Source: Minisyncoccota bacterium
Lineage (GTDB): Bacteria > Patescibacteriota > Minisyncoccia > UBA6257 > GWB1-50-10
Reading direction: 5' to 3'
Assembly (NCBI GenBank): GCA_020059915.1
Contig: JAGVBB010000002.1
Coordinates: 62,129 to 126,128 of the forward strand
Length of the DNA stretch: 64,000 bases
Positions within the stretch are counted from its first letter, which is position 1; every line of letters starts with the position of its first letter. Positions 8,007 to 54,193 of the stretch are shown in pieces. The position numbers and the translations under genes are program-made. Below the pieces are notes generated by a model. The model had not been told where the DNA came from. It made no database searches and was given only the letters and a program-made list of their open reading frames with translations.

Positions 8007-8102
8007 CAAAAACAAAGAGCGTCTGCACGACCCCAGTAGGTCATTTTGCTAAATGATATGTTTTTGTAGGATGCCGTATATAATTACGGCGCCACAAATA
8101 AA

Positions 8103-17222: not shown

Positions 17223-17223
17223 G

Positions 17224-17295
17224 TGCCCTTGGGTGGAATCGAACCACCACCACCTCCTTCGGAGGGAGATATTGTATCCATTCAACTACAAGGGC
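17224..17295 (-). tRNA. tRNA-Arg (anticodon CCG)
   Basis: Manual cloverleaf from the reverse complement: acceptor GCCCUUG/CAAGGGC, D-arm GUUG-AAUGGAUA-CAAU, anticodon stem UCUCC/GGAGG with loop CU-CCG-AA, T-arm GGUGG-UUCGAUU-CCACC, discriminator A; CCA not encoded. Confidence 0.75.
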
Positions 17296-39834: not shown

Positions 39835-39868
39835 AAAATCTCGCTAGTCACTAGCGGGATTTTTTATG
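39833..39868. terminator. bidirectional terminator between jag and the minus-strand cluster
   Basis: cgctagtcactagcg palindrome flanked by an A-run and a T-run. Confidence 0.55.
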
Positions 39869-41336
39869 GATAGTCGACATGTATGTGAAGCCCTGTGTAA
39901 TTTATACTTCCATCCGCGCCATAACCAGAACAATCAGCGCTTTGAGATCGATAAAAGCTTCCATTTTTATAATATTCACACCACGCACTAACCCCCTTGT
40001 CTTTTATGTAGGTTAATAATAATTCTGTATCTGTTTTTGATTTAGACTCAGCGACAACGTCTGCTGATATTCCCTTATAGTGGTTTGAGTTATTACTTGT
40101 ATGATCCCCACCAGTCAGGCTTGTTATTGCAAATTTTGGAAGTAATTTTCCGGGCCTAAACTCGTTTCCATTTTCATAATCAAACTGAATTGCATCAAGT
40201 AGGGCTATAAGGTTGCTACTCAACACCTTTCCAGAAGTATTGTCACACTGTGTTCCATCTGTTTTACACCCATCGTGACACACATATGGAAATAAACCCT
40301 TTTTAGTATCATCCATAATCCCATGCGCGCTTGTTTTTGATTTTGGTTCGCAATCAGCGTTTGTACTATAGTAGTTTAATTTTATTCCTTGTGCTGCATA
40401 TAGTGTGTTTGTTGTTGAAGCAAGCGCTGATGCCAACCCGCCACGTGCTTCATCCCAACCAGAATATTGGGAAACTGGCGGTGTTGATGATGGTATCTTA
40501 GGAAGAATACACGGAGCTAGATCACTTTTTAATGAGGTCATTATTGTCTTTTCAGCAATATCCCCAACCTCTTGGTTAAGTGCTTTTTGCCACGGCGTCC
40601 TATATGCATATACCAAGCACTGTGCAGAAGATGGCCCAACAGATTTAATAAAATAAGGATATACCCAGATAATAGAGTTTGCTGGAATTGATTCCCCTCC
40701 GGCATAATATTCGTTTGTTGTTATTGTCATGCCGTCTTTATCAAATAAATGACGATATGTACAAACATTATTAACTGGTGGCGTCGTGTTATATAGTTGT
40801 CCGCCAGAATTCCCTGATATGTTTGTTGCTATGTCGCAGGTTGATGATGCGACAGTTGCGCTTAAGCTTGCTTCTGTATTAACCCTATTTTTTTGTATGA
40901 GAGTACCTGTTGATGGTTCTTTTAGTTTTACTAATTCCGGATTTATTGTTTTTAAGAGTAGAAACGAAGCAAAAAGGAGGAGCACTCCCCACAAAGCATC
41001 TTGAATTATTTGTTTTCCCTCACTTTTTGCAGTGACATTCTCTGATTTAACAATAATTATAATTGCTCCATACACAATCATTCCAACCGCAACAATTCCT
41101 GAGATTCCAACAGCAAATTGATACAGGCGGACTATATAGGTTTGTATATCTTGTGGCTCGGAACAAGAAGAAAGTTGGAATCCTGCAATAGGAAGATCTA
41201 TACATGGCGGAGGAAATACAAGTCGCATCGTATCTTGTGCTTGAACAAAAAGAGGTAGGAATGATGTTCCTAAAACAAACAACAAACAGAGGATTAAAAA
41301 TATTTTTTTACTTAAGCGCATATATAAAGTTGTCAT
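39864..41336 (-). CDS. membrane-anchored protein with a C-terminal Peptidase_M15A/M15_3-type (Zn D,D/L,D-peptidase) cell-wall hydrolase domain; last gene of the T4SS-like cluster
   Basis: Signal peptide plus two hydrophobic helices, Cys-rich extracellular region, C-terminal SNHYKGISADVV ... GSINYTGLHIHVDYP matching the SxHxxGxAxD / GxY...HVD zinc-ligand pattern of M15A (MepK/phage endolysin-type) peptidases. Confidence 0.55.
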   Translation of the reverse strand: MTTLYMRLSKKIFLILCLLFVLGTSFLPLFVQAQDTMRLVFPPPCIDLPIAGFQLSSCSEPQDIQTYIVRLYQFAVGISGIVAVGMIVYGAIIIIVKSENVTAKSEGKQIIQDALWGVLLLFASFLLLKTINPELVKLKEPSTGTLIQKNRVNTEASLSATVASSTCDIATNISGNSGGQLYNTTPPVNNVCTYRHLFDKDGMTITTNEYYAGGESIPANSIIWVYPYFIKSVGPSSAQCLVYAYRTPWQKALNQEVGDIAEKTIMTSLKSDLAPCILPKIPSSTPPVSQYSGWDEARGGLASALASTTNTLYAAQGIKLNYYSTNADCEPKSKTSAHGIMDDTKKGLFPYVCHDGCKTDGTQCDNTSGKVLSSNLIALLDAIQFDYENGNEFRPGKLLPKFAITSLTGGDHTSNNSNHYKGISADVVAESKSKTDTELLLTYIKDKGVSAWCEYYKNGSFYRSQSADCSGYGADGSINYTGLHIHVDYP

Positions 41337-42492
41337 ATTTGTTTATAAAGTATAATGATGGTTGTGTTACTATGATATTTTTTGCATCAATGGGTATATT
41401 TTTTATATCAGAGATTTGGACCTGATCTTCTGTTTGTGAATATGTGTCATAGACATATAATAGATCGTCGGTAAATGAAAGATTAGTGATCCAATTAAAT
41501 AAAGAAATATCCGTTTTAGGAACAAAACAAAACGCGGTAGTAACAAGAGAAGAACATTTTTCGGGGAGCGTTTTCTTTGTTGTTGGCACAATGTTTTCAA
41601 AAGAGTTATTTCCAATTACGAATCCATCGTTTTTTGAATAAAAGAAATAAACAGAGAGTTCTGGATTAAGTGAAAAATCTAATAAACCAGATCTAATTGT
41701 TGAAAATAATTTTGTTTTCAAATTATATTGCCAAATGGATGTTGCATATTCATTTCCAAATTTCTCAACAAACAATAATTCATCTCTTGATTTTTTAAAT
41801 ATATCAACATCAAACAGTTTTAGTTTTGGAATAATAACAGTTTTATCGGAATATGATTTTAATGACGAAAGAGATACGACACTTGTTGTTCCCCCTTGAT
41901 CCCAAAGCGCAACAATATCTTGATTGTTAAAATCCCACACAGCGTCAGTTATTGACGAATTTAATGGTGTTATTTTTTCATCCATTGAAGAAAAAATTCC
42001 CCATATTGTTCCTGAATTTGTTGCAAATTTTATTAAAACAGAAGATCCGCCGCGATTTGGTTTTATCATACTAACGTTATTCAGTGGGTTTAGGGCTATT
42101 TTTTCACTCTTTCCGTCTATTACTTTTTTTATTTCTCCATTCTCTGTTATATAAAAAATTCTATTATTTTCCTCATAATACCAATATGATTGCGCGGGTA
42201 CGTCCGAGACTTTTTGAAGTTCTGTGAATGAGGTTTTTATTACTGCTGATTCGCTATAATTTCCACCGTCCCCTGTTTCATTGTTTTCTATTTCCACTAC
42301 ATCTGTCGGTGTCTGCTCATTGTTATCCAACTCCTCTATGAGGGTGTTGGTAGTTGATGTGGATATAGTCGTGTTGCCTTGCTCTTCTGTTGGTGTTGTT
42401 TTAGATACAACAAAATAAATTATCCACGCAATTGTGCCGAGTATAAGAAAAATGATTAGATATTTATATATTGGTCTCATGTTAGTTTCCAA
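41308..42492 (-). CDS. hypothetical bitopic membrane protein with a large extracellular beta-rich domain (cluster gene)
   Basis: N-terminal TM anchor; repeated aromatic/Asn-rich segments; no family recognised. Confidence 0.4.
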   Translation of the reverse strand: METNMRPIYKYLIIFLILGTIAWIIYFVVSKTTPTEEQGNTTISTSTTNTLIEELDNNEQTPTDVVEIENNETGDGGNYSESAVIKTSFTELQKVSDVPAQSYWYYEENNRIFYITENGEIKKVIDGKSEKIALNPLNNVSMIKPNRGGSSVLIKFATNSGTIWGIFSSMDEKITPLNSSITDAVWDFNNQDIVALWDQGGTTSVVSLSSLKSYSDKTVIIPKLKLFDVDIFKKSRDELLFVEKFGNEYATSIWQYNLKTKLFSTIRSGLLDFSLNPELSVYFFYSKNDGFVIGNNSFENIVPTTKKTLPEKCSSLVTTAFCFVPKTDISLFNWITNLSFTDDLLYVYDTYSQTEDQVQISDIKNIPIDAKNIIVTQPSLYFINKYDNFIYALK

Positions 42493-43177
42493 TAAATATT
42501 TTTGTTTGAGTTTTTATTATTTCAAGCAAAGATTTTTTGTTTTGGACATATCCAGTTATAGAAACTGAATTGTTTGAAGTGGTGCTCGGGTTCCCTGTAT
42601 TTATTGTTATTTTATTGTTTGATCCCGTTCCTTTTTTAAGTAATCCAATTTGCCAAGAGAATGAGAGGTCTTCAAATGACTTGGTATTAAAAAAATATGG
42701 AACAGCGGTTATTGAGATATCAGAGTTTTTGGGAACTACATTGTTTATATAAGGTATTTCTAATATAAGTTTTGGTTCTGTTGTTGGTATAGTAATACTT
42801 TTTTGAATCAATACCCCATTCCAATCCACTGAAACCGAAACGAAATTTGTTCTATCAGTTTCAGAGAATACCACCATTGCTTCTTTTTCTCCTGTCCCTT
42901 TTCTTATTCTTTCCCCATTTTTTCTCCACTCAATGGTAGAATTTGACACATCCAACAATGTCCCATTTTGAACCGCCTCAACAGCGAGATACACTTTTGT
43001 TCCATATGAGGGAACCGCCTTTCCAATATATGAAGTTGGGAAAAAATTATCTGCCTTCCAAGTTACTATAAGTTCCGGATTTGCTGCATTTGTAGATAAG
43101 AAAAACCCGAAAAACAAACAAACAAATGTTAATAAAAAGAGATTATGCCGCATGTTTAATTTTTTCTTGTTCTTCAT
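42482..43177 (-). CDS. hypothetical secreted protein (cluster gene)
   Basis: Probable start at the internal Met giving the signal peptide MKNKKKLNMRHNLFLLTFVCLFFGFFLSTNA; the ORF-track start 43330 would overlap the upstream gene by 188 nt. Confidence 0.4.
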   Translation of the reverse strand: MKNKKKLNMRHNLFLLTFVCLFFGFFLSTNAANPELIVTWKADNFFPTSYIGKAVPSYGTKVYLAVEAVQNGTLLDVSNSTIEWRKNGERIRKGTGEKEAMVVFSETDRTNFVSVSVDWNGVLIQKSITIPTTEPKLILEIPYINNVVPKNSDISITAVPYFFNTKSFEDLSFSWQIGLLKKGTGSNNKITINTGNPSTTSNNSVSITGYVQNKKSLLEIIKTQTKIFIGN

Positions 43178-43712
43178 TATGTTCTTGAATAATTGGATTG
43201 TTTTGTGTCCGTAGTGGGGATGACGGCATTGATAAAATCCTCGGTTTATTTGTATTGGATAGAGGCGCTCCCTTATTAACTTTGTTAATTGTTCCAACAA
43301 TTTTACTTCCCCTCGATGCAGATGTTGCAACTTTCATTGCAACAGATCCCGTCCCTCCAGTTGCTGCCCCAACGGCTATTTGTGCTCCTTTCTCTATTAT
43401 ACCTAATTTCTCCGGATGATTCTCTAGATACATAACAACAACAATAGTTGCACACATTGTTGGAAGAAATGGTATGCCCTGAACCATAATTGGAATGAGA
43501 TATCCTTTTAATGGATCATTTAGGACGCTTGATCCACCCTTTTTAAGCCAGTAGTTTTTTACAAATGGCCACAAGACGCTTTGTGCTATCCAACCAAGAA
43601 AACCAAAAGAAAATAAATCACCAAGGAAAGCAATTCCATCGATAATTAACCCAACAACAAAACCGAGAAACATCTCTCCAAGCTCAAATTTGTTTTTTGT
43701 TTTCTGACTCAT
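43143..43712 (-). CDS. hypothetical integral membrane protein (cluster gene)
   Basis: ~4 hydrophobic helices, Gly-rich loop. Confidence 0.4.
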   Translation of the reverse strand: MSQKTKNKFELGEMFLGFVVGLIIDGIAFLGDLFSFGFLGWIAQSVLWPFVKNYWLKKGGSSVLNDPLKGYLIPIMVQGIPFLPTMCATIVVVMYLENHPEKLGIIEKGAQIAVGAATGGTGSVAMKVATSASRGSKIVGTINKVNKGAPLSNTNKPRILSMPSSPLRTQNNPIIQEHNEEQEKIKHAA

Positions 43713-43715
43713 TCT

Positions 43716-45470
43716 TTATGCCAATCCCTTTGATTCTAATACCTGCTCTGGGTTTGTAGTAACTATTTGATCCTCAGTATATGAGGCAATAACTTTCATT
43801 GCTACATGTTTTGCTCCAGCAAAGAAAAGCCCTTCTCCGACGCCCGCCTCTAATAAAAATGCTCGCTCCCCTTCGGTGAGATTGAATGCTGTTGCTACGG
43901 AGTCAATTGAGCCAGGAGACTGCTTCATAAGAATTTGCATTGAAGAGTTTGTGACGATTGGTTTTCCATATTCTGATTTCAAAAAATCTTCCACGTCCTG
44001 TGTTATAGTTGTTATTCCAAGATAATATTTTCTTGCGCGTTTTACTAAACCAAACAAAAATGAAGCAGAGTCTTTATATTTCATCATTAACCACGCCTCA
44101 TCAATAATAAGTGCGCGTTGTTGTAATTTTGACCGCACAAGATTCCAAACAAAGTTTAAAACAATATACATTGCTATCGGGCGGAGCTCTTCTTCTAAAT
44201 CCCTAATTGAAAAAACAATAAGGCGATTTTTTATGTCCACGTTTGTGGGGGCGTTGGTAAATCCAGCATAGGAACCATGAACAAATTTATCAAGTCGAGC
44301 AGCGAGTGTTTGCCCCCCAGATGTATTTGAAAGTATTACTTGTAGATCTTCTAAGAGTGGGGGGTTAATTTCTCCTAGTGTTCCAAAATTATCTGCTGTT
44401 ATATCTCGTGATGCATATGTTTCTGTTACCACTCTATCAAGAAGTGAATCCTCTTCTGGGGTTATAACGCCCAGCATAAGTTTTAATAATCCAGTGAGAT
44501 TTAAAATGTGTGATTTAAATACGTCCGATGGTTCCTCTCCTTCTGGAATAATAGGAATATCAAAAGGATTGACGTGGTTTTGTGACGTGAGTGAGATTTT
44601 AAAGTAACTACCACCTATTGCATTGGAGAGATTCTGATATTCGTTTTCTGGATCAATAATAATAACATTCACCCCAAGCATTAATGATCGCAAGACCTGG
44701 AGTTTTGTGGTGTATGATTTTCCCGCACCAGATGTTGCAAATATTACTTGGTTTGCATTTTGAAGTGAAAATCTATCAAAGATTATCAAGCTATTGTTGT
44801 GCATATTGACCCCATATAATATCCCCTTTTCAGAAGATAAGTCAGGAGAAACAAAAGGAAAGAGAGATGATGCTGGGCTTGAATTCAATGGTGTTGTTAT
44901 TTCAAGTTTATCCCTATTTATCGGAAGTGCTGTGGAGTTAAATCCCTCAAGTTGTTTGAATAGTGCGGGTTTTATATACACAAGCTTACTCTCGAGTGCT
45001 GATTGAATTTTTTCCTCAAGCTTTCTTAGTCCATCCAGTGTTTGTGCATAGATGGTTATATATACTCCAACGCGGAACAGTTTTTCTCTCGCTTGCAACA
45101 AAGAGTCACGAAGTTGTTCGACGTCCTCATATGCTGTTTCTAGCATTGGGTCTCTCACAAGCCCCTTTTCTTGTTTATCCCAAAGTTCTGCCTCTATGTT
45201 TGCAACCTTCTTTTTTAAATCTTTTAATGCAAATGCAGTATCCATTGGGTGAACAAACACAGATATATCCATCATTTCTGCCATGTTGATAATTGGGGAA
45301 AACCACCCACTAGATACATAGCGAGGATAAGTAAAAACAAACAAAGTTTTCACGAAATAATCACCAAGCTTTAAGTAGCTTGAACTAACCTCAAGTCCGG
45401 ATGGGGCAATAATATTTGGTAGATCCTTATTTGATGGCGTATATGCTTGTGGAACTGATATTTTTATCAT
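43716..45470 (-). CDS. VirB4/TraE-type T4SS ATPase, C-terminal ATPase portion
   Basis: Walker A FATSGAGKSYTT, IIDPENEY, Walker B IIDEAWLMM, ...GWFSPII region typical of VirB4 family. Confidence 0.7.
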   Translation of the reverse strand: MIKISVPQAYTPSNKDLPNIIAPSGLEVSSSYLKLGDYFVKTLFVFTYPRYVSSGWFSPIINMAEMMDISVFVHPMDTAFALKDLKKKVANIEAELWDKQEKGLVRDPMLETAYEDVEQLRDSLLQAREKLFRVGVYITIYAQTLDGLRKLEEKIQSALESKLVYIKPALFKQLEGFNSTALPINRDKLEITTPLNSSPASSLFPFVSPDLSSEKGILYGVNMHNNSLIIFDRFSLQNANQVIFATSGAGKSYTTKLQVLRSLMLGVNVIIIDPENEYQNLSNAIGGSYFKISLTSQNHVNPFDIPIIPEGEEPSDVFKSHILNLTGLLKLMLGVITPEEDSLLDRVVTETYASRDITADNFGTLGEINPPLLEDLQVILSNTSGGQTLAARLDKFVHGSYAGFTNAPTNVDIKNRLIVFSIRDLEEELRPIAMYIVLNFVWNLVRSKLQQRALIIDEAWLMMKYKDSASFLFGLVKRARKYYLGITTITQDVEDFLKSEYGKPIVTNSSMQILMKQSPGSIDSVATAFNLTEGERAFLLEAGVGEGLFFAGAKHVAMKVIASYTEDQIVTTNPEQVLESKGLA

Positions 45471-45472
45471 AA

Positions 45473-46114
45473 TTATTTTTTTGCAATTTGCAGATCCTTT
45501 TTTTCTATTAACTGTGGATTATAGAGATTATAGAAAAGTTCAGTGAGCTCCTCGTCATTTAATTCAGAAACATGCAATCCGATTTGTTCCAGTCCTTCTT
45601 TTACTTCAATAACCCGGTGTTCTAATTGTTCCAATTTTGACTGGAGTGTTGCTTGTGCCTCTGCATCCCGTGATTTTTGAGAACCAAACAAAGAAGAAAG
45701 AACCCCAAATGATGGCGTATTTACAATGCCTTCATAAGGAATCACCACGAAGAATGTTTTTGAAATTATTGCATTTTGATCAACTAGTGTTTTTATAAAA
45801 TTTATATATTCGTCAATTTGGATCTTTAATAATTCATTTTCTTCCTGCTCTCTCCGTTCCCTCATTTTATCGAGATAGGAATCAACATTAACCTTTCTTG
45901 AGTGTATAAAGAGTTGTGTTGGATAATCGATGGTATTTAAAAAATTTTGAAAACTACCCAAAATAAGATTTTGTTCAGCGTCTGATTTTAAATCAAAATT
46001 TATTCCACTAACGATAAGTATTCGACGGATCCCGCCATCTTTTAAATAGACGATTCCATCTTTTATTTCACTTATTTCTACAAATTTTTGTGTTGGTGTA
46101 TTTACCTCTGCCAT
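45473..46114 (-). CDS. VirB4-family N-terminal domain encoded as a separate ORF
   Basis: EISEIKDGIVYLKDGGIRRILIVSGINFDLKSDAEQNLILGSFQNFLNTIDYPTQLFIHSRKV resembles the CagE_TrbE_VirB N-terminal domain of Gram-positive VirB4 (PrgJ/TraE/TcpF); ends 2 nt before the ATPase ORF in a different frame. Confidence 0.6.
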   Translation of the reverse strand: MAEVNTPTQKFVEISEIKDGIVYLKDGGIRRILIVSGINFDLKSDAEQNLILGSFQNFLNTIDYPTQLFIHSRKVNVDSYLDKMRERREQEENELLKIQIDEYINFIKTLVDQNAIISKTFFVVIPYEGIVNTPSFGVLSSLFGSQKSRDAEAQATLQSKLEQLEHRVIEVKEGLEQIGLHVSELNDEELTELFYNLYNPQLIEKKDLQIAKK

Positions 46115-46134
46115 ATGCTAATTGTACATGATTA

Positions 46135-46635
46135 TTAATAATCAATGCGTTTTGCCGTCCTTTTTTCTCCAGTAAGATAGGTTACTACCTCATATTTCCC
46201 CTTTTTGTTTTCCCTCACTGTTTCGTGCTCCTGTTTGAATAACTTGCCCGTTGTTATAGACTCAGCAACGTTTTTGATCTTTTCTTGTATACTCATAGCT
46301 CGACGTATTGATGAAAGTTTTTCAATAGAGCTGGTGTCTATTGAAGTTTCTTCCATTGCGCGCTCCCATACATATATGCGGGGATTCCAAAAATAACGAA
46401 ATGCTGATTGTGCTACCTTGTGGAGATCTTGTCCATTTACTTTTACAAAAGCAAAGGAAATTGCTATTCCAACAACAATCATAGAAAGTATAATCCATAA
46501 AAAAATGGAGAAGATATAGTAAAGAACAATTGAAACAACAGCAGCACCACCAATAAGTAAAAATTGTTGGAGTGTAAAAAATGATATTATCTTTGGTTTT
46601 TCCTCTATAAATTGAGGTACCTGAAAGGTAGACAT
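46135..46635 (-). CDS. PrgI/VirB3-like small two-TM protein
   Basis: FQVPQFIEEKPKIISFFTLQQFLLIGGAAVV then two hydrophobic helices; the pattern and its position directly upstream of VirB4 match PrgI/TcpE-family proteins. Confidence 0.5.
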   Translation of the reverse strand: MSTFQVPQFIEEKPKIISFFTLQQFLLIGGAAVVSIVLYYIFSIFLWIILSMIVVGIAISFAFVKVNGQDLHKVAQSAFRYFWNPRIYVWERAMEETSIDTSSIEKLSSIRRAMSIQEKIKNVAESITTGKLFKQEHETVRENKKGKYEVVTYLTGEKRTAKRIDY

Positions 46636-46698
46636 TTCATTTATTATACCCTAGAAATAAAAACAAGTGGAATACTATAAACACCCAAAAATGGGTGT

Positions 46699-47778
46699 TT
46701 ATTTTAGATTTATAATATTTCCTTTGATTACCGATTGAGTGCTGTCTGGTTTTTCCTCTTGGATTTTAATCTCTGGTAACGGCGATTTGATATTTTCCTG
46801 TCCATTTTTGAAAATATTTGATATCCACGATGATTTTTTTTCTTGTTTTTCCTCTGGAACTACTGCTGAGTCCATTATTTTTTTATCTGTTTCTTGCGCT
46901 GTTTTTGGTGTTAGTGTTATAACTTCTGGCGTTTGGACCGTGTTTATTTGTTGGGTCATTGGTGAGCTCTTCGTCTCTGATGGTTTGATAATATCTTCTT
47001 CTCTACTCATTCGCTCAAGTGCCCCAACACTTATTACCTCTTCCTCTGCCCCAACCGCAGGTTTCAGCCCAGTTCGTATCTCATTATAATGAATTGTTGT
47101 TTTTTGTTCTGGTTTTAAAAAGGAGAAAGGATTTGGTCCAGATTCAATTTTTGCTTTTGGAATTTTTTTCTCACTCGATTCGGATGATGAAGGTATAAAT
47201 TTATTGAATGGGGTTTCTGGTCTTTTTTCTTCATGTGCATCTCTTCTAAAAAATGTTGGCTCTTCCTGAAGAATTAGTGGAGCATCTTCTGATGTTTCAA
47301 TTTTTATTGGTGAAGACTCTTCATTTTTAGTAAAGAAATCTGGTTTAATAACCTCTTCTTTTTTTTCAAGCTCTTCTGTGTCTTTGCCACCTTCTATTTT
47401 TTTCTCAATTACATCCCTAATTTGCTCCTTTTCTGCAAGGACCTCTTCTATTGGTTTATAAATATCATTTATTTCCTCTTCATAGGGCGCAAGAAGACGG
47501 TTATATATTTCATCAGTAAGAACCCTTGCGTGTTCAAAATTGAGAAATAACTGCTCCCCGACCTCTCTGGAAAGATTTCTGAGGGATATAAAACCCATAA
47601 GGGTCAATCCAACAAGTTGTTCAAGAATTACTGATTTTTCTGGACTTAGATAGTGTTCTCGTTCAATTCCTGAAAGCACACGTTTTGTTTGTTCCGACTC
47701 AAAAACTGCCCGCAGAGATGCTGGTATCGCTTCGTATCGTTCATCAAATATGTCTGATGTAAATAGTGAATAGTCCAT
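46699..47778 (-). CDS. hypothetical acidic, Glu/Lys/Pro-rich and probably disordered cytoplasmic protein (cluster gene)
   Basis: No TM segments; structured N-terminal ~110 aa, then low-complexity sequence. Confidence 0.4.
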   Translation of the reverse strand: MDYSLFTSDIFDERYEAIPASLRAVFESEQTKRVLSGIEREHYLSPEKSVILEQLVGLTLMGFISLRNLSREVGEQLFLNFEHARVLTDEIYNRLLAPYEEEINDIYKPIEEVLAEKEQIRDVIEKKIEGGKDTEELEKKEEVIKPDFFTKNEESSPIKIETSEDAPLILQEEPTFFRRDAHEEKRPETPFNKFIPSSSESSEKKIPKAKIESGPNPFSFLKPEQKTTIHYNEIRTGLKPAVGAEEEVISVGALERMSREEDIIKPSETKSSPMTQQINTVQTPEVITLTPKTAQETDKKIMDSAVVPEEKQEKKSSWISNIFKNGQENIKSPLPEIKIQEEKPDSTQSVIKGNIINLK

Positions 47779-50216
47779 TATCTTTTTTTACCCCCCTTTT
47801 TTTGTTTATTTCTCATTTCAACAAGATCATTGCTAAATCTGTCCCGTTCTTTTTCAAGTCCCTTGCGTGCTGAGTTAAGATATTCTTTTTGATTATCGGT
47901 AGCGCCACTAATTACCTCATCAAGTTTTGGTAATATCTCCTGATTAATTGCTTCTATGCGGTTTGTGATATTTTTCTCATTATATTTCCCTTTTGTGAGA
48001 GTCGTTTTCCAATTTGAAACCTGCTCTTTAGTTCTGTTTATTGTTTCGTCAATTGCAACAATTGTTGGATCTGTTGTATTTTTTAATTCGCCAAGTTTTT
48101 CAACGCGCTTCTTTTCTAGATCACTTACATGTTCTTCTAGTGCGTCAAAAACTCTCTTTGTCTCTGGTGAATTTCCCAGAAGACCGTTGAGTTTATATTG
48201 AAGTGACGACGCACGATCTTGGTAGAATTTTGGATCAAGTCCATCAATTGCGTTTTTGTCTGCAAGATCCCTTGTTTTCTTAATTTCACTTTCAAACTCT
48301 TGGATTGTTTCTGGTGTTTCAAAATTCTTTTTAATAACGTTTTCCATTGTTTCTCGTTTCTTTTCAACAAACTTCTTTTCACTCTCAGTTTTTACTTCTT
48401 TTTGTTGTTTGAGAAGCTTTGAGTATTCATTGCTGAGGTCACCCTCATTCATGTCGCCCCACTTACCACGCAACGCAGAAATGGTTTTTTGTTGTGATTC
48501 TTCAAATTTCTTGTTAAATTCTTTAAGATTTGAAATCTTGAACCCTTTTGTTTTAAGTTCCTCAAGAGTCTTAAGGAGTTTTTCGTGATCTTTTTCACGA
48601 TCTTCTGGTGTTTTGTCTTTCTCGTCTTTTTTCTCTTTCTCTTTTATAATCCCAGCACCCTGAAATGCACCCTTGAGTAAACCATCAGCCCAACCACCCC
48701 TCTTAATTTCCTTACTTGCCTGTCCAGCGAGTGCGGATTCAATTGGTTTACCAACTTTTTGTCCCAAACTACCAACTTTGCGCGCAAATAGTCCACCTGT
48801 CATATTTTTAAGTGACATCATTGTGCGTGACTTTCCAGCAATATCTTTATTTGCATCATTTAATGATTTTTCCAACTCCTTCTTTTCTTCTGGAGAAAGT
48901 TTTTTATCATTTCTTATTTCTTTAAGGTCTTTATGGTAGGTATCAAATTTTTTCCTCTTTTGTTCCATATCTTCCCCAGTTCCCTTAAGATTCTTACCCA
49001 TTAATCCCATTTTTGTAGCAAATTTTCCACCCCATTCGGATCGTGAAAGGCGCGTACCTATGTTTGCCGCTTTGTTCTTACCATATGTCTTTGCCCCCTT
49101 CATAAGGCCATCTTTTGCTTTATTTGCAAGAGACGCTCCTTCAATTCCCATTTTTTGAGCAACAGTAATTGCACCAATCATAAGTCCAGCAACTACAATC
49201 ATTTGAGTTCCATTTTGTACAATCTGTGCTAATGGTCCTGGCAGTGTTTCAGCAATACCAGCAAGCTTTCCCCTGTTTGATGGATCTGCAAGATTTTCTG
49301 CCGCAACGAGCGAGAGATAAACAAAGAAAGATGCCGCAGGAGCAAAGAAGGTGTATTTCCAAAAATTTGACCACCACTGTGCATTATATGATTTGAGTCC
49401 AGGGAATACCCAAAACAACCAGGCAAGTGGCGCAAGCACGAGAAGAAATGTAAGGGCAACATACCGCACCAAAAACATACCAGCGAGCATCAAAAGTACA
49501 ATTGTTGCAAGAAGTGTAAAGAATACTATAAAGAATAACCCAGCAATTGAGGAAAGAACCTGAACACCAAAGGTAAAAAAACCACCTCCTTCTTGTGCGG
49601 GGTCTGGTGGAAGTGGGTCATCAGACTCTTCTAATAAGAATTTTTGTGGCCCAAATGCATTTGCAAGTACCTCGGTAAGCCCACTTCCTGGTACCAAGCT
49701 ACTACCACCACTTGGGTCAATTCTTCCTACAAAAAACCACGTGAGTGTATTGGAAAAATCTATAAGTGTTCCCGCAATAACAAAACTGAAATTTACCACT
49801 ACTGCCGCGATAATAAGGTTGAGTAACAATTTTTTTGCCCCATATGATTGGACGCGAATTATAGTCATGAACGCCATAATGACGGTCAGAAGAACAAAGC
49901 CAAGATTTGCTATATCTCTTGATACTCTCCAACCAATGTCAGCAATTGGATTTGCAGCAGGGTCCGCAACATACATATTGAGATCAACGAGGGTAAATTT
50001 AACAAGCCATGCGCCTATAGCAAAAAATATTCCCGCAATAAAGTTAAATATGTAGGCGATTAATTTAAAAACACCAGTTACAACACCGGAGAGGGAAATA
50101 CCAAAAAGTGCATGTGAGACGTTCGGTGTAAGTACTCCTGCAGCAAAAACAAAACCCAAAACAATCCCCAGGATTATATGTTTTCTATGTTGTTTTAGGA
50201 TTGTTGTTATGGGCAT
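47778..50216 (-). CDS. VirB6/TrbL-like polytopic membrane protein with a ~400-aa Lys/Glu-rich coiled-coil C-terminal tail
   Basis: Signal/TM1 plus ~7 more hydrophobic helices in the first ~400 aa with Trp/Phe-rich loops; C-terminal half is highly charged and predicted alpha-helical. Confidence 0.45.
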   Translation of the reverse strand: MPITTILKQHRKHIILGIVLGFVFAAGVLTPNVSHALFGISLSGVVTGVFKLIAYIFNFIAGIFFAIGAWLVKFTLVDLNMYVADPAANPIADIGWRVSRDIANLGFVLLTVIMAFMTIIRVQSYGAKKLLLNLIIAAVVVNFSFVIAGTLIDFSNTLTWFFVGRIDPSGGSSLVPGSGLTEVLANAFGPQKFLLEESDDPLPPDPAQEGGGFFTFGVQVLSSIAGLFFIVFFTLLATIVLLMLAGMFLVRYVALTFLLVLAPLAWLFWVFPGLKSYNAQWWSNFWKYTFFAPAASFFVYLSLVAAENLADPSNRGKLAGIAETLPGPLAQIVQNGTQMIVVAGLMIGAITVAQKMGIEGASLANKAKDGLMKGAKTYGKNKAANIGTRLSRSEWGGKFATKMGLMGKNLKGTGEDMEQKRKKFDTYHKDLKEIRNDKKLSPEEKKELEKSLNDANKDIAGKSRTMMSLKNMTGGLFARKVGSLGQKVGKPIESALAGQASKEIKRGGWADGLLKGAFQGAGIIKEKEKKDEKDKTPEDREKDHEKLLKTLEELKTKGFKISNLKEFNKKFEESQQKTISALRGKWGDMNEGDLSNEYSKLLKQQKEVKTESEKKFVEKKRETMENVIKKNFETPETIQEFESEIKKTRDLADKNAIDGLDPKFYQDRASSLQYKLNGLLGNSPETKRVFDALEEHVSDLEKKRVEKLGELKNTTDPTIVAIDETINRTKEQVSNWKTTLTKGKYNEKNITNRIEAINQEILPKLDEVISGATDNQKEYLNSARKGLEKERDRFSNDLVEMRNKQKKGGKKR

Positions 50217-50218
50217 GA

Positions 50219-52186
50219 TTATTCTTCAAAAAAACTTGGACATGTATAGATTGTTGCGTTTATACATGAGTTATATAGTGCGTTTATTTCTATAATCTTT
50301 GTCGCAGAAAACACCTTTGCGTTATATATATTTTGTGATATTTCAGATATATTTTCTTCAATTGAATTGAGTGCCGTGCTTATTGTTGATATCCCTCCTT
50401 GTGATGTTGTGGTAGTTGGTTTATTTATCTGTCCAAATGCATCTGTTGTTGTGCTTAAAAGTAAATAAGACCCATTAATTGATGTAGTGTGGCTGTTAAT
50501 TAGATTTTGATCCCTTTTTGTTGATAGACAAAGTTCTCCATTAATTGATGATTTTACCCTCTCACAATTTGCAAGTAGTGTTATCTTATTATTTAGTTGG
50601 ATTAGTGATGTTTTTACAACTCCCAGTGAAGAACTCACATTTTGAAGTGATGTTTCTACATCATTATACTGAGTTTGCAGATTTATTAGTTGTTGGTTTT
50701 GTATTCCTGTTTGTGTTTGGTTTTGTATTCCTGTTTCTGATTGTCCTAATACATCATTTGTGTTTTTATTTTGTTCATAGCTGTCTTTTATTCCTTGATC
50801 TTGTGGAGATCCAGAGCGACCCGTTCCAGAATTACTTTTTATTCCATCACCAGCAAGTAACCCTTTTCCGACATTCACAATTCCTTGCACTCCTTTGTTA
50901 ATAAGACGATTGACGGCGGCATCAAAAACGACATCAATATAATCCTCGAGGTTTTCTGCGTTCGCAATGTAGTGTTGATCTTGATTAAATGTTGACTGAA
51001 GAGCTGTCTTTGTTGTGTCTCCGGGAGTATTTATATAGGTATGAGTACATTTCCACCCACTATAGTGTGGGGTATATAGATTTAAAAGAGAGAGGTTTGT
51101 TGAGTTCTGTTTTGCAAGTTGTGTTAATCCCGTGTCATAAGATATTCCAGCAGCATTTGTTGTTGGTTTTTGTGGGTCTGGAAATTCTTCACTAAATCCG
51201 GTAGTAACTACCTGAGAAACAACCTTCCCATTCTCATTAAGTAGGTTGAGAGTCCATTCACTACAAACTTTTTCTCCTTTAAATCCTGACGCCGTCAGTG
51301 ATTCTTGTGTCGCCTCTTGTTTCTTCTCATCAATGACTTTGTATGCCTCATCCAGTGCGAGAATCTCCAATCCAAAGCGATTATTATTAGGAGAAAGTGT
51401 TTCATTATAAGCGATCCATCCACCATTTCTGAAATCGTTTCCAAAGTCACTTATGTTTTGTACAATTTTATCTAGTGTACATTGTGTTTCTTGTGTAAAC
51501 TTTTTCTGTGTAGGAGCGCGCAAATTCAATTGTAATTTTAGAGACAATTTTTCATCACATAAGTTTCCTAGTCCGACATCTCTTGCAACGTCTCCAATCG
51601 CCGATTGATAAGAATCCTCGAACACATCACCAAAGTTTGTGATGAATCTTGGGGTTCCCTTAAAGTCATTATTTATCCATTCTATTGTCTGATCTGCGAT
51701 ACGATCAAGGAGTTGTTTTTTAAGTCTTGCAAGTGCAATATTTAGTGCAAAATCAGTGATTGCGGTGAGGCAGTCTTGTGCTTGTCCCTCTGCTAATTTT
51801 GCTTGAATCTCATCTGATTTATTCTCTTGTGTTTCTCGTATCTTGCTTTGCGCTTTTGATATTGCTTCCAATGTTTGCAGATCAAACACAGGCACAGACA
51901 TAACACTTCCCGTTATTGCATTTTGTACGAGATCTCGAAGTTCTTGTTCTGCAAGTTCTCTTGCCTCAGTTTTTGCAAGATCTATTGCTTTCTGTCTCAT
52001 TTCTTCTTTAATCCTCGCTGCTTCTGCGCCGATACCAAAACATTGGGAAGCTATATCAGCGAGACCACCGGCATTTACATGTTTTACAAAATAAACATTC
52101 ACAGAAAATATTGATGCTACAAGTAATAATGATATTATTTTTAAAACAGATTTTTTCATTGTAGAGAAGAAATTGCTACATTCCAC
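50219..52186 (-). CDS. large secreted hypothetical protein (cluster gene) with an internal tandem repeat
   Basis: Signal peptide MKKSVLKIISLLLVASIFSVNVYFVKHVNA; Gln/Asn/Thr-rich; direct 24-nt DNA repeat at ~50690..50745 encoding TGIQNQTQ x2. Confidence 0.45.
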   Translation of the reverse strand: MECSNFFSTMKKSVLKIISLLLVASIFSVNVYFVKHVNAGGLADIASQCFGIGAEAARIKEEMRQKAIDLAKTEARELAEQELRDLVQNAITGSVMSVPVFDLQTLEAISKAQSKIRETQENKSDEIQAKLAEGQAQDCLTAITDFALNIALARLKKQLLDRIADQTIEWINNDFKGTPRFITNFGDVFEDSYQSAIGDVARDVGLGNLCDEKLSLKLQLNLRAPTQKKFTQETQCTLDKIVQNISDFGNDFRNGGWIAYNETLSPNNNRFGLEILALDEAYKVIDEKKQEATQESLTASGFKGEKVCSEWTLNLLNENGKVVSQVVTTGFSEEFPDPQKPTTNAAGISYDTGLTQLAKQNSTNLSLLNLYTPHYSGWKCTHTYINTPGDTTKTALQSTFNQDQHYIANAENLEDYIDVVFDAAVNRLINKGVQGIVNVGKGLLAGDGIKSNSGTGRSGSPQDQGIKDSYEQNKNTNDVLGQSETGIQNQTQTGIQNQQLINLQTQYNDVETSLQNVSSSLGVVKTSLIQLNNKITLLANCERVKSSINGELCLSTKRDQNLINSHTTSINGSYLLLSTTTDAFGQINKPTTTTSQGGISTISTALNSIEENISEISQNIYNAKVFSATKIIEINALYNSCINATIYTCPSFFEE

Positions 52187-52902
52187 ACAATATCATCATT
52201 TTTAATGAGTGTAGAAAGGTTTTCAACAACGGCTATTACTTTTACTGGGTCGTCTGGGTTTTCAATAATAATTTTTGCGAGTGTTCTTCTTTTTTCAGCG
52301 TTGTTTAATATTGCTAGATGGAAGTCCTCCCAACCGGAAAATGCTGGAGTTTCCAATAAGAAATCAATATACTCAGATTCTGCATTTATATGTTTCTGCA
52401 AATCATCTGATTTTTTTTCCAAAACAAAAATACCAACCGCAGAAACAATATTTGTTTCTCTCTTTCTTTCTATTTCAACATCTTTTTTCTCTATTTTTTC
52501 TATGTATGATATAAGATCTGTTAGTGTTGATTTTTTCTCTATAGTAATGTCTTTTTTTGTATAAATTTGGGAAAGTATTGGTTGGGTTGTATATTTTTGG
52601 ATAATATTCTGTATATCAACCTCATTTGGGAGAAGTATTTCATCGCCACCTTTTTTGTTTTTATTATATTCAAAAATAGCAAGTTCATAATCTTTTATTG
52701 TCTGTTCGGTTGCGTTAAAGTTTGGCTCGTTTAGAGAATATATAGATTTTCTATCGTTTTTTAAAAATTGTGAGTCATTTTTTTCAGAACCAGTTATTTG
52801 TGCTGATGACAGGTTTTTATCGGTTGTGTAGAACAAAAGATATGCGGAATAAGCAATTCCGATCATGACAATACCAACTGAGAGGATCTTTTTATTCCTC
52901 AT
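52156..52902 (-). CDS. hypothetical bitopic membrane protein (possible VirB8-like position; first gene of the cluster)
   Basis: Single N-terminal TM anchor plus a ~215-aa extracytoplasmic domain. Confidence 0.35.
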   Translation of the reverse strand: MRNKKILSVGIVMIGIAYSAYLLFYTTDKNLSSAQITGSEKNDSQFLKNDRKSIYSLNEPNFNATEQTIKDYELAIFEYNKNKKGGDEILLPNEVDIQNIIQKYTTQPILSQIYTKKDITIEKKSTLTDLISYIEKIEKKDVEIERKRETNIVSAVGIFVLEKKSDDLQKHINAESEYIDFLLETPAFSGWEDFHLAILNNAEKRRTLAKIIIENPDDPVKVIAVVENLSTLIKNDDIVWNVAISSLQ

Positions 52903-53708
52903 TACTTTTCATTATACAACATTTTTGCAAGCTCCATTATAGTTTCAGAGCTCAGGACCTGTGCCCTCGTGTTTTCTGGAATATTTAACCTAGTTAATAT
53001 ATTTTGAATGTCATTTTTTTTGAACGTTTTCTCAATGTCTGCTTCCCTGAGGTTGTTCAATATTGTTTTTCTTGGGTGTTTGAATAGTGCTTTCGTAACA
53101 ACTATATATCTTTCGATTTCCTCTTTTTTATATTGGTTGTGTGTAATTAGTTGAATAACCGCAGAATCAACCTTTGGTGGTGGCGAAAATTGATTTCGTG
53201 GTACTTGTTTGATAATCATCGCGTCTGCAAAGGAAGAAATAATCGCCGAAAGAAGATTTTGGTGTGGCGGTTTTTGAGTTGCTCGTAATGCTACCTCTTT
53301 TTGTATAAGGAGTGTTGTGGTGTGAGGTTTGATGGAGAGATTGCTAATAATACGAAACAAAAATGAGGTTATATAGTATGGTATATTCCCCACTATCACA
53401 TAATTCTTTAATTTTTGGGCATCAGGGAGTATTGGTAAAATTTCCCTTACATCTCCGCGGAACAACCTGTTTTTTGTTGAACTACTAGTAAGAAGGGTAT
53501 CAATTTTTTCAAAGAATCCCTGATCTTTTTCTATACAAAAAAGTGATCCATTTAGTTTATTAATTTCTGGAAGCAAAAAATTGGTTAACTCTCCATGTCC
53601 TGGGCCTATTTCAATGAGTGTTTCTCCCTCTTTTAACTTAGTGTTTTTTGCTATAAATGAGAGTGTTTCTTTTTCCTTTAAAAAGTGCTGTCCAAGTTTC
53701 TGTCGCAT
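52902..53708 (-). CDS. rsmA: 16S rRNA (adenine1518/1519-N6)-dimethyltransferase
   Basis: MRQKLGQHFL...LIEIGPGHGELT motif; start set at the internal Met, because the 135-aa N-terminal extension in the ORF track is the out-of-frame shadow of the neighbouring gene. Confidence 0.8.
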   Translation of the reverse strand: MRQKLGQHFLKEKETLSFIAKNTKLKEGETLIEIGPGHGELTNFLLPEINKLNGSLFCIEKDQGFFEKIDTLLTSSSTKNRLFRGDVREILPILPDAQKLKNYVIVGNIPYYITSFLFRIISNLSIKPHTTTLLIQKEVALRATQKPPHQNLLSAIISSFADAMIIKQVPRNQFSPPPKVDSAVIQLITHNQYKKEEIERYIVVTKALFKHPRKTILNNLREADIEKTFKKNDIQNILTRLNIPENTRAQVLSSETIMELAKMLYNEK

Positions 53709-53710
53709 AT

Positions 53711-54082
53711 TTATGGAGTTGATGGGATGGATGACCCATAAAGCATTATTGGAAACGCATAAACGGGTGTTGGTACGCCAGGTGGTGGAATGGGTATCCA
53801 ACAAATGGGCGCAAGTGCCGGCGTGTACAACCCGAGCACGTAGCCACCAGGTGTTATTGCATAATTCATAAAGCGTCCGGTAGCTGGTTGTGTTCCATAA
53901 ATTGCTGCGGGGGCGATTCCAGAAGGAATGATGGTAATTGGGCCCAATCCACCAGAACAGACAATTGGTGGGGCCATTGATGTGACCACTTTTCCACCGA
54001 ATCCACGGAGAATATTTTGTGCAAATATTTTGTTTGGCGAAAATAGCAAGAGTAAGAATATAACAAAGAAGATTTTTTTCAT
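53711..54082 (-). CDS. small secreted Pro/Gly-rich hypothetical protein
   Basis: Classic signal peptide MKKIFFVIFLLLLFSPNKIFA; ends 2 nt before the rsmA start. Confidence 0.4.
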   Translation of the reverse strand: MKKIFFVIFLLLLFSPNKIFAQNILRGFGGKVVTSMAPPIVCSGGLGPITIIPSGIAPAAIYGTQPATGRFMNYAITPGGYVLGLYTPALAPICWIPIPPPGVPTPVYAFPIMLYGSSIPSTP

Positions 54083-54193
54083 CGTATATATGAAGTATAC
54101 AAAAGAATTGAATAATTACCAAAAAATTGGTATAGTACCTGCATTATAGATATTAAGGGGAATTTCCGCGCTTTGCGCGGTTTTATAGGAGAA

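What the first reader, a model, noticed from the sequence alone, without database searches (positions are those of the whole stretch)
39864..40200. Peptidase_M15A (MepK/phage L-Ala-D-Glu peptidase-type) domain at the C-terminus of a two-helix membrane protein that terminates the cluster
SNHYKGISADVV...GSINYTGLHIHVDYP reproduces the His-Asp...His zinc-ligand arrangement (SxHxxGxAxD ... HVD) of M15A peptidases. T4SS and other trans-envelope machines commonly bring their own peptidoglycan hydrolase. Here it is fused to an N-terminal part with a signal peptide plus two hydrophobic helices, reminiscent of VirB2/TrbC-type pilins, and a Cys-rich extracellular region.
Basis: partly seen in the sequence, partly recalled or inferred. 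Interest (0 to 1): 0.5.

Follow-up and report, generated by a model that had tools for sequence, protein, structure and literature searches.

The report
Pilin-anchored cell-wall peptidase of a T4SS
The last gene of a type IV secretion cluster in a Parcubacteria genome encodes a VirB2-like pilin module fused to an extracellular zinc peptidase domain of the Hedgehog/D-Ala-D-Ala-peptidase fold, most likely the machine's own cell-wall cutter, and this fusion proves to be a widespread family that no curated model covers.

Summary
The ORF at 39864-41336 (- strand, 490 aa) has a signal peptide, two membrane helices, a Cys-rich outer region, and a C-terminal domain carrying H419-x6-D426 and H484-x-H486.

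Relatives give only sub-threshold M15 and HH_signal hits. It is therefore a LAS/Hedgehog-DD-peptidase superfamily domain, not a demonstrable M15A member.

The N-terminus is a VirB2-type pilin module (PF18895 in 28/29 homologues). The gene holds a fixed slot in the origin-proximal Patescibacteria T4SS operon in 18 related loci. Some orthologues or tandem paralogues carry a lysozyme-like domain instead.

An exhaustive search finds 581 family representatives; 115 of the top 139 are pilin fusions. Best reading: a pilin-anchored, VirB1-like peptidoglycan peptidase. This is a new variant of a known kind.

The parts
39864..41336 (-). Whole gene, 490 aa: signal peptide, short Cys-containing segment, VirB2-like two-helix pilin module, linker, conserved beta-rich middle domain, linker, Hedgehog/DD-peptidase-fold zinc peptidase domain. 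Identical to NCBI 'hypothetical protein C4565_00975 [Candidatus Parcubacteria bacterium]'.
41235..41336 (-). Signal peptide, aa 1-34. Homologues suggest the true start may be M6 at 41321. Likely cleavage after VQA.
   Evidence: hydropathy and AF2 helix 2-25; alignment A1; sequence
40938..41147 (-). VirB2/T4SS_pilin-like module: helix 64-96, short basic loop (KSENVTAKSEGK), helix 101-130, ending in the invariant '...TINPEL' motif.
   Evidence: PF18895 E 3e-4 for the query, 28/29 homologues with best 3.5e-8, 91/110 family representatives; AF2 helices
40458..40850 (-). Middle beta-rich domain, aa ~163-293, function unknown. Invariant C192, Y211, W224, P227, Y228, C240, Y243, A244, L269, C276 ('WxYPYFIK...CLxYAYR'). 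Present only in a sub-branch of the family.
   Evidence: only a weak PltB-like match
39867..40391 (-). C-terminal Hedgehog/DD-peptidase (LAS) fold domain, aa 316-490.
40059..40115 (-). Motif 1: T408-G-G-D-H412 ... H419-Y-K-G-I-S-A-D426. H419 and D426 are the predicted Zn ligands. H412 is the equivalent of Shh H135.
   Evidence: invariant T, G, G, H and D in A2; hhalign mapping to Shh GHH...H141-x6-D148 (residue roles from PMC6027127 and PMC8052667)
39975..39977 (-). E454 in the conserved 'C-E-Y' strand, the candidate general base. It lies on the strand corresponding to Shh '...WVYYE177S'. It is replaced in a distant subgroup that instead has Glu at the H412 position (TGGTE).
   Evidence: alignment A2; the role is inferred
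39879..39887 (-). Motif 2: H484-I-H486 on the last beta-strand. H486 is the predicted third Zn ligand. H484 is the equivalent of Shh H181.
   Evidence: invariant in A2, at least 90% conserved in A6; strand 480-488 in the model; the assignment of H486 rather than H484 as ligand is by analogy with LAS enzymes (PMC6027127)
39842..39856 (-). Terminator-like hairpin (CGCTAGTGACTAGCG) followed by a T-run, directly after the stop codon. It lies between the convergent jag gene and this gene.
   Evidence: sequence
41308..52186 (-). Upstream T4SS operon, in transcription order: 655-aa secreted protein (50219-52186); VirB6/TrbL_3-like polytopic protein (47778-50216); 359-aa protein (46699-47778); PrgI/VirB3-like (46135-46635); TraC-like 213 aa (45473-46114); VirB4 ATPase (43716-45470); 189-aa membrane protein (43143-43712); 282-aa (42482-43330) and 394-aa (41308-42492) membrane-anchored proteins.
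   Evidence: Pfam; Pfam marks on orthologues; phmmer synteny in related loci L001-L017 and L022

Best explanation
The gene encodes a T4SS component made of a VirB2-type pilin module and an extracellular peptidoglycan peptidase.

Proposed mechanism, step by step:
- The Sec system exports the protein and the signal peptide is removed.
- The two helices sit in the membrane as a hairpin. The short basic loop faces the cytoplasm and both ends face outwards, as in VirB2.
- The ~360-aa C-terminal part (12 Cys, probably disulfide-bonded) therefore lies in the wall zone.
- Its last 175 residues fold as a Hedgehog/DD-peptidase (LAS) domain. Zn2+ is held by H419, D426 and H486. H412, H484 and E454 assist catalysis.
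- This domain cuts a peptide bond in peptidoglycan stems or cross-links. Which bond cannot be told.
- The pilin module brings the enzyme to the VirB4/VirB6/PrgI machine. It may let the enzyme enter, or sit at, the pilus or stalk.
- Wall opening is thereby confined to the site where the T4SS crosses the cell's own wall, the host's wall, or both.

Functionally this is the counterpart of VirB1, PrgK, TraG and CwlT.

Shown: gene architecture, fold, conserved metal-site residues, operon position, and family-wide fusion to pilins. Inferred: zinc binding, peptidoglycan as substrate, topology, and the targeting role of the pilin module.
For: Fold and site:
- AF2 pLDDT 93.6.
- The Foldseek top 36 are all Hh-N, the VldE LD-endopeptidase domain, or 1lbu.
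- The A2 profile against PDB sequences hits only hedgehog N-domains, E 1.4e-3, across the GHH...HYxGxAxD motif.
- hhalign gives probability 90.7%, E 1.2e-6.
- H419, D426, H484 and H486 are invariant.

Peptidoglycan link:
- Three orthologues and one tandem paralogue replace this domain by PF18896 SLT_3 lysozyme-like (best E 2.7e-5) on the same pilin+middle scaffold.
- 2 of 110 relatives add a Pfam SLT domain (E 1.3e-11).
- Pilin-less relatives P0031 and P0033 carry PG_binding_1 (E 1e-15 to 1e-17) in front of the same domain.

T4SS link:
- PF18895 matches 28/29 and 91/110, and TrbC/VirB2 matches 11/110.
- The same operon slot after VirB4 and two or three small genes is seen in L001-L017, L022, L025 and L027.
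- 115 of the 139 best family representatives are pilin fusions.

Literature:
- Most Patescibacteria genomes with VirB2 homologues lack a recognisable VirB1 (PMC12102498).
Against: - No curated model reaches its threshold on the peptidase domain.
- Foldseek E-values are modest (0.03-0.9) and identity to any solved structure is 18% or less.
- I could not get model coordinates, so the convergence of the three ligands in space is inferred from alignment and strand positions, not measured.
- Hedgehog N-domains, the top matches, are not proven peptidases.
- The candidate base E454 is not invariant across the family.
- There is no biochemical or expression evidence.
- A 40-kDa cargo on a VirB2-type pilin has no characterised precedent, so how or whether it polymerises is unknown.
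Confidence: 0.62

Rival explanations
1. Host-directed weapon or drill. The protein is the structural pilin itself, and every subunit displays the peptidase on the outside of a pilus or stalk. The target is the peptidoglycan of the host cell on which the Parcubacterium lives, not its own wall.
For: - No other pilin module exists in the 64-kb window.
- No other pilin module exists in the ~20-kb T4SS loci of relatives; only fused genes match.
- Patescibacteria T4SSs lack relaxases and coupling proteins and are thought to serve host interaction (PMC12102498, PMC10633639).
- Peptidase and lysozyme-like versions occur in tandem in L001, as expected for full wall degradation.
Against: - No evidence of polymerisation exists.
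- A ~360-aa cargo per subunit is sterically unprecedented for VirB2-type pili.
- Small pilins may lie elsewhere in the genome.
- The data do not separate own wall from host wall as target.
Confidence: 0.22
2. Non-catalytic binding module. As proposed for hedgehog ligands, the zinc site is structural or ligand-binding, and the domain anchors the pilin or T4SS to peptidoglycan or to a host surface glycan without cutting it.
For: - The closest solved structures are hedgehog signalling domains.
- The middle domain has a faint resemblance to a glycan-binding toxin B subunit.
- The candidate base E454 varies in a distant subgroup.
Against: - The complete H-x6-D/H-x-H triad and both 'stacking' histidines are conserved over 110 representatives at 50% identity or less.
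- The subgroup that loses E454 gains Glu at the H412 position, which looks like compensation to keep catalysis.
- Exchange with lysozyme-like domains argues for a hydrolytic role.
Confidence: 0.1
3. Housekeeping wall-remodelling carboxypeptidase or endopeptidase that merely lies beside the T4SS genes near the replication origin.
For: The neighbourhood holds other wall genes: a class A PBP beside dnaN in relatives, and LysM-M23 at 54173-55183.
Against: - The domain is physically fused to a T4SS pilin module in 115/139 representatives.
- It keeps the same slot inside the T4SS operon in every sizeable locus examined.
Confidence: 0.04
4. Chance motif in a non-enzymatic Cys-rich surface protein.
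For: No Pfam, NCBIfam or PHROG hit on the domain; no phmmer hit in the PDB.
Confidence: 0.02

Closest known systems
Hedgehog N-terminal signalling domain (ShhN) and 'bacterial hedgehog' M15A-type peptidases (Roelink 2018, PMC6027127; Jagers & Roelink 2021, PMC8052667)
   Same: - The only significant sequence-profile match in the PDB.
- Same G-x-H...H-Y-x-G-x-A-x-D and H-x-H motifs, with H412, H419, D426, H484 and H486 corresponding to Shh H135, H141, D148, H181 and H183 (for the first three; the last two by motif and strand position).
   Different: - Only ~17% identity.
- No Pfam HH_signal hit for the query, and only sub-threshold hits in 8/110 relatives.
- The acidic 'WDEDG' calcium-site segment of Shh/BacHh is replaced by 'SLTGG'.
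- A ~30-residue Cys-containing insertion sits before the HxH strand.
- An extra N-terminal Cys-rich helical subdomain is present.
- The domain is fused to a pilin.
M15 zinc peptidases of peptidoglycan: S. albus DD-carboxypeptidase (M15A, 1lbu), MepK-type PF08291, phage L-Ala-D-Glu peptidases Ply500/T5/LysB4 (M15C), VanX, VanY, LdcB, and MepA (M74)
   Different: - No Pfam M15 model matches the query.
- Relatives give only E 0.005-0.08.
- 'TGGDH' replaces the usual 'SGYR' segment.
- Bond specificity is unknown.
VirB1-like wall hydrolases of T4SSs, especially the membrane-anchored multidomain enzymes of Gram-positive systems (PrgK of pCF10, TraG of pIP501, CwlT of ICEBs1)
   Same: Encoded inside the T4SS operon, membrane-anchored with the catalytic part outside, and modular with interchangeable or combined peptidase and glycosidase domains. 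PrgK has LytM, SLT and CHAP (literature cited in PMC12102498). Here LAS and SLT_3 versions are swapped or sit in tandem.
   Different: The anchor is a VirB2-type pilin hairpin rather than a single N-terminal helix. The peptidase is Hedgehog/DD-peptidase type rather than CHAP, NlpC/P60 or M23. The query itself has no glycosidase domain.
VirB2/TrbC-type T4SS pilins of Patescibacteria (Pfam PF18895; Wang 2023 PMC10633639; Quinonero-Coronel 2025 PMC12102498)
   Same: Signal peptide plus a two-helix hairpin with the PF18895 signature, encoded near virB4 in the origin-proximal T4SS cluster.
   Different: Described pilins are small and often occur in arrays. This one carries a ~360-aa extracellular cargo and is the only pilin-module gene in the cluster. 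The published survey counted PF18895 hits without noting extra domains.

Membership tests
LAS / Hedgehog-DD-peptidase superfamily | H-x6-D plus H-x-H zinc-site motifs, conserved across homologues | tested here: met
   H419-x6-D426 and H484-x-H486 are invariant in 20 homologues. They are invariant or at least 90% conserved in 110 representatives.
LAS / Hedgehog-DD-peptidase superfamily | The fold: structural similarity to several independent members | tested here: met
   [not shown]
LAS / Hedgehog-DD-peptidase superfamily | Motif residues occupy the positions of the zinc ligands | tested here: inconclusive
   hhalign and HMMER align H419 and D426 (and H412) with Shh H141, D148 and H135.
LAS / Hedgehog-DD-peptidase superfamily | Binds Zn2+ and hydrolyses a peptide bond | not testable with these tools
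   Needs metal analysis and muropeptide assays.
Pfam Peptidase_M15_3 (PF08291; M15A/MepK type) | hmmscan score above the gathering cut-off (23.2 bits) | tested here: not met
   No hit for the full protein or the C-terminal parts at E<=10. Best in relatives: E 0.0066-0.077.
Pfam Peptidase_M15_4 (PF13539; VanY / phage L-Ala-D-Glu peptidase type) | hmmscan score above the gathering cut-off (25 bits) | tested here: not met
   No hit for the query. 3/29 homologues at best 0.0082. P0031 scores 16 bits over the full model length.
Hedgehog N-domain / bacterial hedgehog (PF01085 HH_signal) | hmmscan score above the cut-off | tested here: not met
   No hit for the query. 2/29 and 8/110 relatives hit, best E 3.9e-4.
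Hedgehog N-domain / bacterial hedgehog (PF01085 HH_signal) | Hh/BacHh calcium site (E90, E91, D96, E127, D130, D132 in mouse Shh; PMC8052667) | tested here: not met
   The segment aligned just before GHH is 'ITSLTG' in the query against 'TEGWDED' in Shh, so there is no acidic cluster (sequence). The three N-terminal ligands could not be mapped.
VirB2/T4SS_pilin (PF18895, TrbC clan) | Match to the pilin model | tested here: inconclusive
   Query E 3e-4, 21.2 bits, below the cut-off of 26.6. However 28/29 homologues (best 3.5e-8), 91/110 representatives (best 1e-12) and TrbC PF04956 in 11/110 match.
VirB2/T4SS_pilin (PF18895, TrbC clan) | Signal peptide plus a two-helix hairpin; gene within a virB4 cluster | tested here: met
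   helices; cluster
VirB2/T4SS_pilin (PF18895, TrbC clan) | Polymerises into a pilus | not testable with these tools
   Needs microscopy or structure determination.
VirB1-like T4SS peptidoglycan hydrolase (functional class) | Wall-hydrolase domain encoded inside the T4SS operon | tested here: met
   Operon position is conserved in 18 related loci. LAS fold.
VirB1-like T4SS peptidoglycan hydrolase (functional class) | Lytic transglycosylase / lysozyme-like (SLT) domain, as in canonical VirB1 | tested here: not met
   There is no SLT-like sequence in the query or anywhere in the window. It is present instead of the peptidase in P0006, P0015 and P0017 and in a tandem paralogue in L001.

The most novel reading that the evidence does not exclude
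In this branch of Patescibacteria the only VirB2-type pilin of the T4SS carries a wall hydrolase on every subunit: a peptidase, a lysozyme-like domain, or tandem copies. The machine would then build an enzyme-studded stalk or pilus that digests its way through peptidoglycan, probably that of the host cell. This would be a mode of envelope penetration not known for any secretion system. It would also explain why these T4SSs appear to lack VirB1. A side issue is that this large, pilin-linked, hedgehog-like LAS family may bear on the bacterial ancestry of the Hedgehog N-domain.
Probability: 0.2. Interest if true: 0.8.

Novelty: new variant of a known kind. Interest (0 to 1): 0.55.

Why it matters
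Patescibacteria T4SSs are essential for epibiotic growth in the one species tested, and their function is unknown (PMC10633639, PMC11665869). [quoted passage not shown]

The present result offers a concrete alternative. In a large set of these systems the wall hydrolase is hidden inside the 'pilin' gene itself, as a domain that no curated model recognises. An exhaustive search found 581 cluster representatives of this domain.

This yields three things:
- a testable candidate for how the machine crosses peptidoglycan;
- a new domain family worth a Pfam/InterPro entry;
- a warning that PF18895 hits are not all simple pilins.

Tried and rejected
- phmmer of the C-terminal 178 aa against PDB sequences: nothing.
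- Pfam on the full protein and two C-terminal fragments at E<=10: no peptidase family.
- NCBIfam and PHROGs: nothing useful.
- Word-indexed homologue search with the C-terminal profile: only 6 hits, although these included the informative PG_binding_1 fusions.
- Pfam on the divergent 'VTEAFPPT...H...D...HLHL' and 'SCHYGG' C-terminal variants from other loci: no hits. Their relationship rests on motifs only.
- The AFDB50 fold library was not available.
- Model coordinates are not exposed, so I could not measure ligand geometry or superpose on 1LBU or 1VHH.
- Lysozyme-like profile A3 against the PDB: nothing. Support for SLT_3 comes from Pfam at 25 bits against a cut-off of 27.
- Middle domain: only a weak, short match to pertussis-like toxin B subunits (domain E 0.22). 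I do not build on it.
- Two contig look-ups for short family members gave contigs too short for context.
- Literature searches for a described VirB2-hydrolase fusion found none. The library is incomplete, so this is absence of evidence only.
- Rejected: membership of PF08291 or PF13539 as such; membership of the calcium-binding BacHh subgroup; a chance motif; a housekeeping enzyme unrelated to the T4SS.
Full report
**1. The observation**

The region lies in one ORF, 39864-41336 on the - strand (490 aa). The quoted strings are there: NSNHYKGISADVV and GSINYTGLHIHVDYP.

- The protein is identical to an NCBI 'hypothetical protein C4565_00975 [Candidatus Parcubacteria bacterium]'.
- Key residues are H412, H419, D426, E454, H484 and H486. 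There are 12 Cys after the signal peptide.
- Hydropathy and the AF2 model give a signal peptide (aa ~6-34) and two long helices (64-96, 101-130).
- A terminator-like hairpin (39842-39856) follows the stop codon. The next gene, jag (R3H), is convergent.

**2. Is the motif more than chance?**

Twenty-nine homologues were found. I aligned the C-terminal parts of 20 of them, which are 16-81% identical to the query.

- Only 10 columns are invariant: T408, G409, G410, H419, D426, three Cys, H484 and H486.
- An exhaustive HMMER search of 1.84 billion cluster representatives with this profile finds 581 proteins at E<=1e-3 and 195 at E<=1e-10.
- In 110 of those, H, Y, G and D of HYxGxxxD are invariant. 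The HxH histidines and the upstream 'GxH' histidine are at least 90% conserved.

This is strong purifying selection on exactly the predicted metal site.

**3. What the C-terminal domain is**

There is no peptidase family at E<=10 for the whole protein or for two C-terminal fragments. NCBIfam and PHROGs give nothing, and phmmer against PDB sequences gives nothing.

More sensitive methods agree with each other:
- The domain profile against PDB sequences hits only hedgehog N-terminal domains (23 sequences, best E 1.4e-3). The alignment runs over [16 protein letters not shown].
- hhalign of the profile against that Shh segment gives 90.7% probability, E 1.2e-6. It maps H412, H419 and D426 to Shh H135, H141 and D148 (residue roles from PMC6027127 and PMC8052667).
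- The isolated domain, modelled with the 20-sequence alignment, has pLDDT 93.6 and pTM 0.88.
- Foldseek gives the same picture with both models. Its top hits are all Hh-N, the VldE LD-endopeptidase domain, or 1lbu.
- Per-member Pfam scans show only sub-threshold, concordant hits in relatives: Peptidase_M15_4, M15_3 and HH_signal.

The domain therefore belongs to the LAS/Hedgehog-DD-peptidase superfamily. It forms a distinct family that no Pfam model covers. It is nearest in sequence and structure to hedgehog N-domains, and it lacks the Shh/BacHh calcium-site segment ('SLTGG' instead of 'WDEDG').

I could not obtain coordinates. The spatial convergence of the ligands is therefore inferred, not measured.

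**4. The N-terminal part**

- PF18895 T4SS_pilin matches the query at aa 64-128 with E 3e-4, below the cut-off.
- It matches 28/29 homologues (best 3.5e-8) and 91/110 family representatives (best 1e-12). TrbC/VirB2 PF04956 matches 11/110.
- The signal peptide, two helices and short basic loop give the VirB2 topology, so the C-terminal cargo is outside the membrane. This topology is inferred.
- A home-made HMM of the pilin module finds no second copy in the 64-kb window.

**5. Context**

Upstream on the same strand lie these genes (and 40-43 for Pfam marks on orthologues):
- VirB4 (TraG P-loop, AAA_10);
- a TraC-like 213-aa protein;
- PrgI (VirB3-like);
- a TrbL_3/VirB6-like polytopic protein;
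- several unassigned secreted or membrane proteins.

Downstream are jag, yidC, rnpA, rpmH and dnaA. This is the origin-proximal Patescibacteria T4SS described by Quinonero-Coronel et al. 2025 (PMC12102498).

- In L001-L004 and in 18 loci from a scan of GTDB species genomes, the orthologous gene keeps its place after VirB4 and two or three small genes. Those genomes are Paceibacterota, Parcubacteria, Jorgensenbacteria and Brennerbacteria MAGs.
- In some loci the 394-aa gene follows it, so it is not always the terminal gene.
- Shorter family members keep the same slot: pilin directly fused to the peptidase (313 aa) and a tandem-peptidase version (629 aa).

**6. Evidence that the cargo acts on peptidoglycan**

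- Three close homologues (P0006, P0015, P0017) keep the pilin and middle domains. They replace the peptidase by a domain with the 'AESGG...WGLFQIN' signature, which matches PF18896 SLT_3 lysozyme-like in all three (best E 2.7e-5, 25 bits against a cut-off of 27).
- In locus L001/L005 a peptidase version and a lysozyme-like version lie 0.9 kb apart.
- Two of 110 relatives carry a clear Pfam SLT domain as well.
- Pilin-less relatives P0031 and P0033 have PG_binding_1 (E 1e-15 to 1e-17) in front of the same peptidase domain.

Exchange or combination of a peptidase with a muramidase-type domain is the pattern of T4SS wall hydrolases in Gram-positive bacteria, such as PrgK, TraG and CwlT (as summarised in PMC12102498).

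**7. How general the fusion is**

Of the 139 best representatives of the peptidase family:
- 97 are pilin-peptidase;
- 10 are pilin-peptidase-peptidase;
- 8 are pilin-middle-peptidase, like the query;
- 24 show no pilin module. Some of these are fragments.

The domain is thus predominantly a pilin cargo.

**8. Mechanism proposed**

The protein is a pilin-anchored, extracellular, zinc-dependent peptidoglycan peptidase that serves the T4SS in the way VirB1 does. The pilin module delivers it to the machine. Details are in Best explanation.

The evidence does not decide three points: whether it cuts the cell's own wall or the host's, which bond it cuts, and whether it polymerises. The rivals are a host-directed enzyme-studded pilus, a non-catalytic binding module, a housekeeping enzyme and a chance motif. 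They are weighed in the Rival explanations section.

**9. Novelty**

T4SS-borne wall hydrolases, the LAS fold and Patescibacteria VirB2-like pilins are all known. The physical fusion of the two is not described in the papers I could search. The same holds for the existence of a large hedgehog-like peptidase family that lives almost only on pilins.

The 2025 survey counts such genes simply as VirB2, and it infers that pilus biogenesis there needs no VirB1. I rate this a new variant of a known kind, of moderate interest.

Noticed in passing
L001 12448-13860 (same as L005 10454-11866): A second pilin+middle-domain paralogue with a lysozyme-like (SLT_3-type) C-terminus lies 0.9 kb downstream of the pilin-peptidase gene in a Paceibacterota MAG. 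One genome therefore carries both enzyme versions in tandem.
   Followed up: partly
window 40458-40850 (aa ~163-293): The conserved middle beta domain ('WxYPYFIK...CLxYAYR', 4 invariant Cys) has no family assignment. Its only hint is a weak, short match to pertussis-like toxin B subunits (PltB; E 0.02, domain E 0.22). It is absent from most family members.
   Followed up: partly
window 54173-55183 (+): A secreted protein with LysM repeats and Peptidase_M23 (E 2.4e-24), another LAS-type wall peptidase. It lies just beyond the ksgA end of the T4SS cluster on the opposite strand.
   Followed up: no
L016 1082-2242, L017 7863-8975, L022 3442-4515; also P0020, P0028: Other pilin fusions end in 'W.VTEAFPPT..H....H..G.A.D ... 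HLHL'. This motif is even closer to Shh '[24 protein letters not shown]'. Pfam sees nothing in them.
   Followed up: partly
L018, L019, L020 (GC-rich MAGs labelled Gammaproteobacteria): The pilin module is embedded between long Cys-rich N- and C-terminal regions (530-700 aa). L020 has two such genes in tandem. No T4SS genes matching the window's were found within 8 kb.
   Followed up: no
P0035-P0037, P0039, P0040, P0046 and others; L027 8330-10219: Ten of the 139 representatives carry two peptidase domains in tandem behind one pilin module. The example examined sits in the same T4SS operon slot.
   Followed up: partly
P0031, P0033: High-GC proteins with PG_binding_1 followed by the same peptidase domain ('INAVTGGTHSFNSNHYQGRAIDLSV...DHIHLDF') and no pilin module. 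The domain therefore also exists outside the pilin context.
   Followed up: partly
L001 5897-6157; L027 2294-2635, 3249-3635, 6265-6612: Small selfish-element-type genes (GIY-YIG; 23S_rRNA_IVP; DUF559) are inserted between T4SS genes in related loci but not in this window.
   Followed up: no
window 52902-54122 (-): The listed 406-aa ORF for KsgA (RrnaAD) starts at a TTG far upstream. The Pfam match begins at aa 138, so the real start is probably the internal ATG (MRQKLGQHFL...).
   Followed up: no
window 7666-8007 (+) and 17223-17295 (-): A tmRNA gene (tag DNQRVAVPAFAFAA) and a tRNA-Arg(CCG).
   Followed up: no
window 43143-43712 (-): A small membrane protein directly after virB4 is conserved in nearly all related loci (65-189 aa) and has no family assignment. 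It might be the PrgF/VirB2-like component reported for Gram-positive systems; this was not tested.
   Followed up: no
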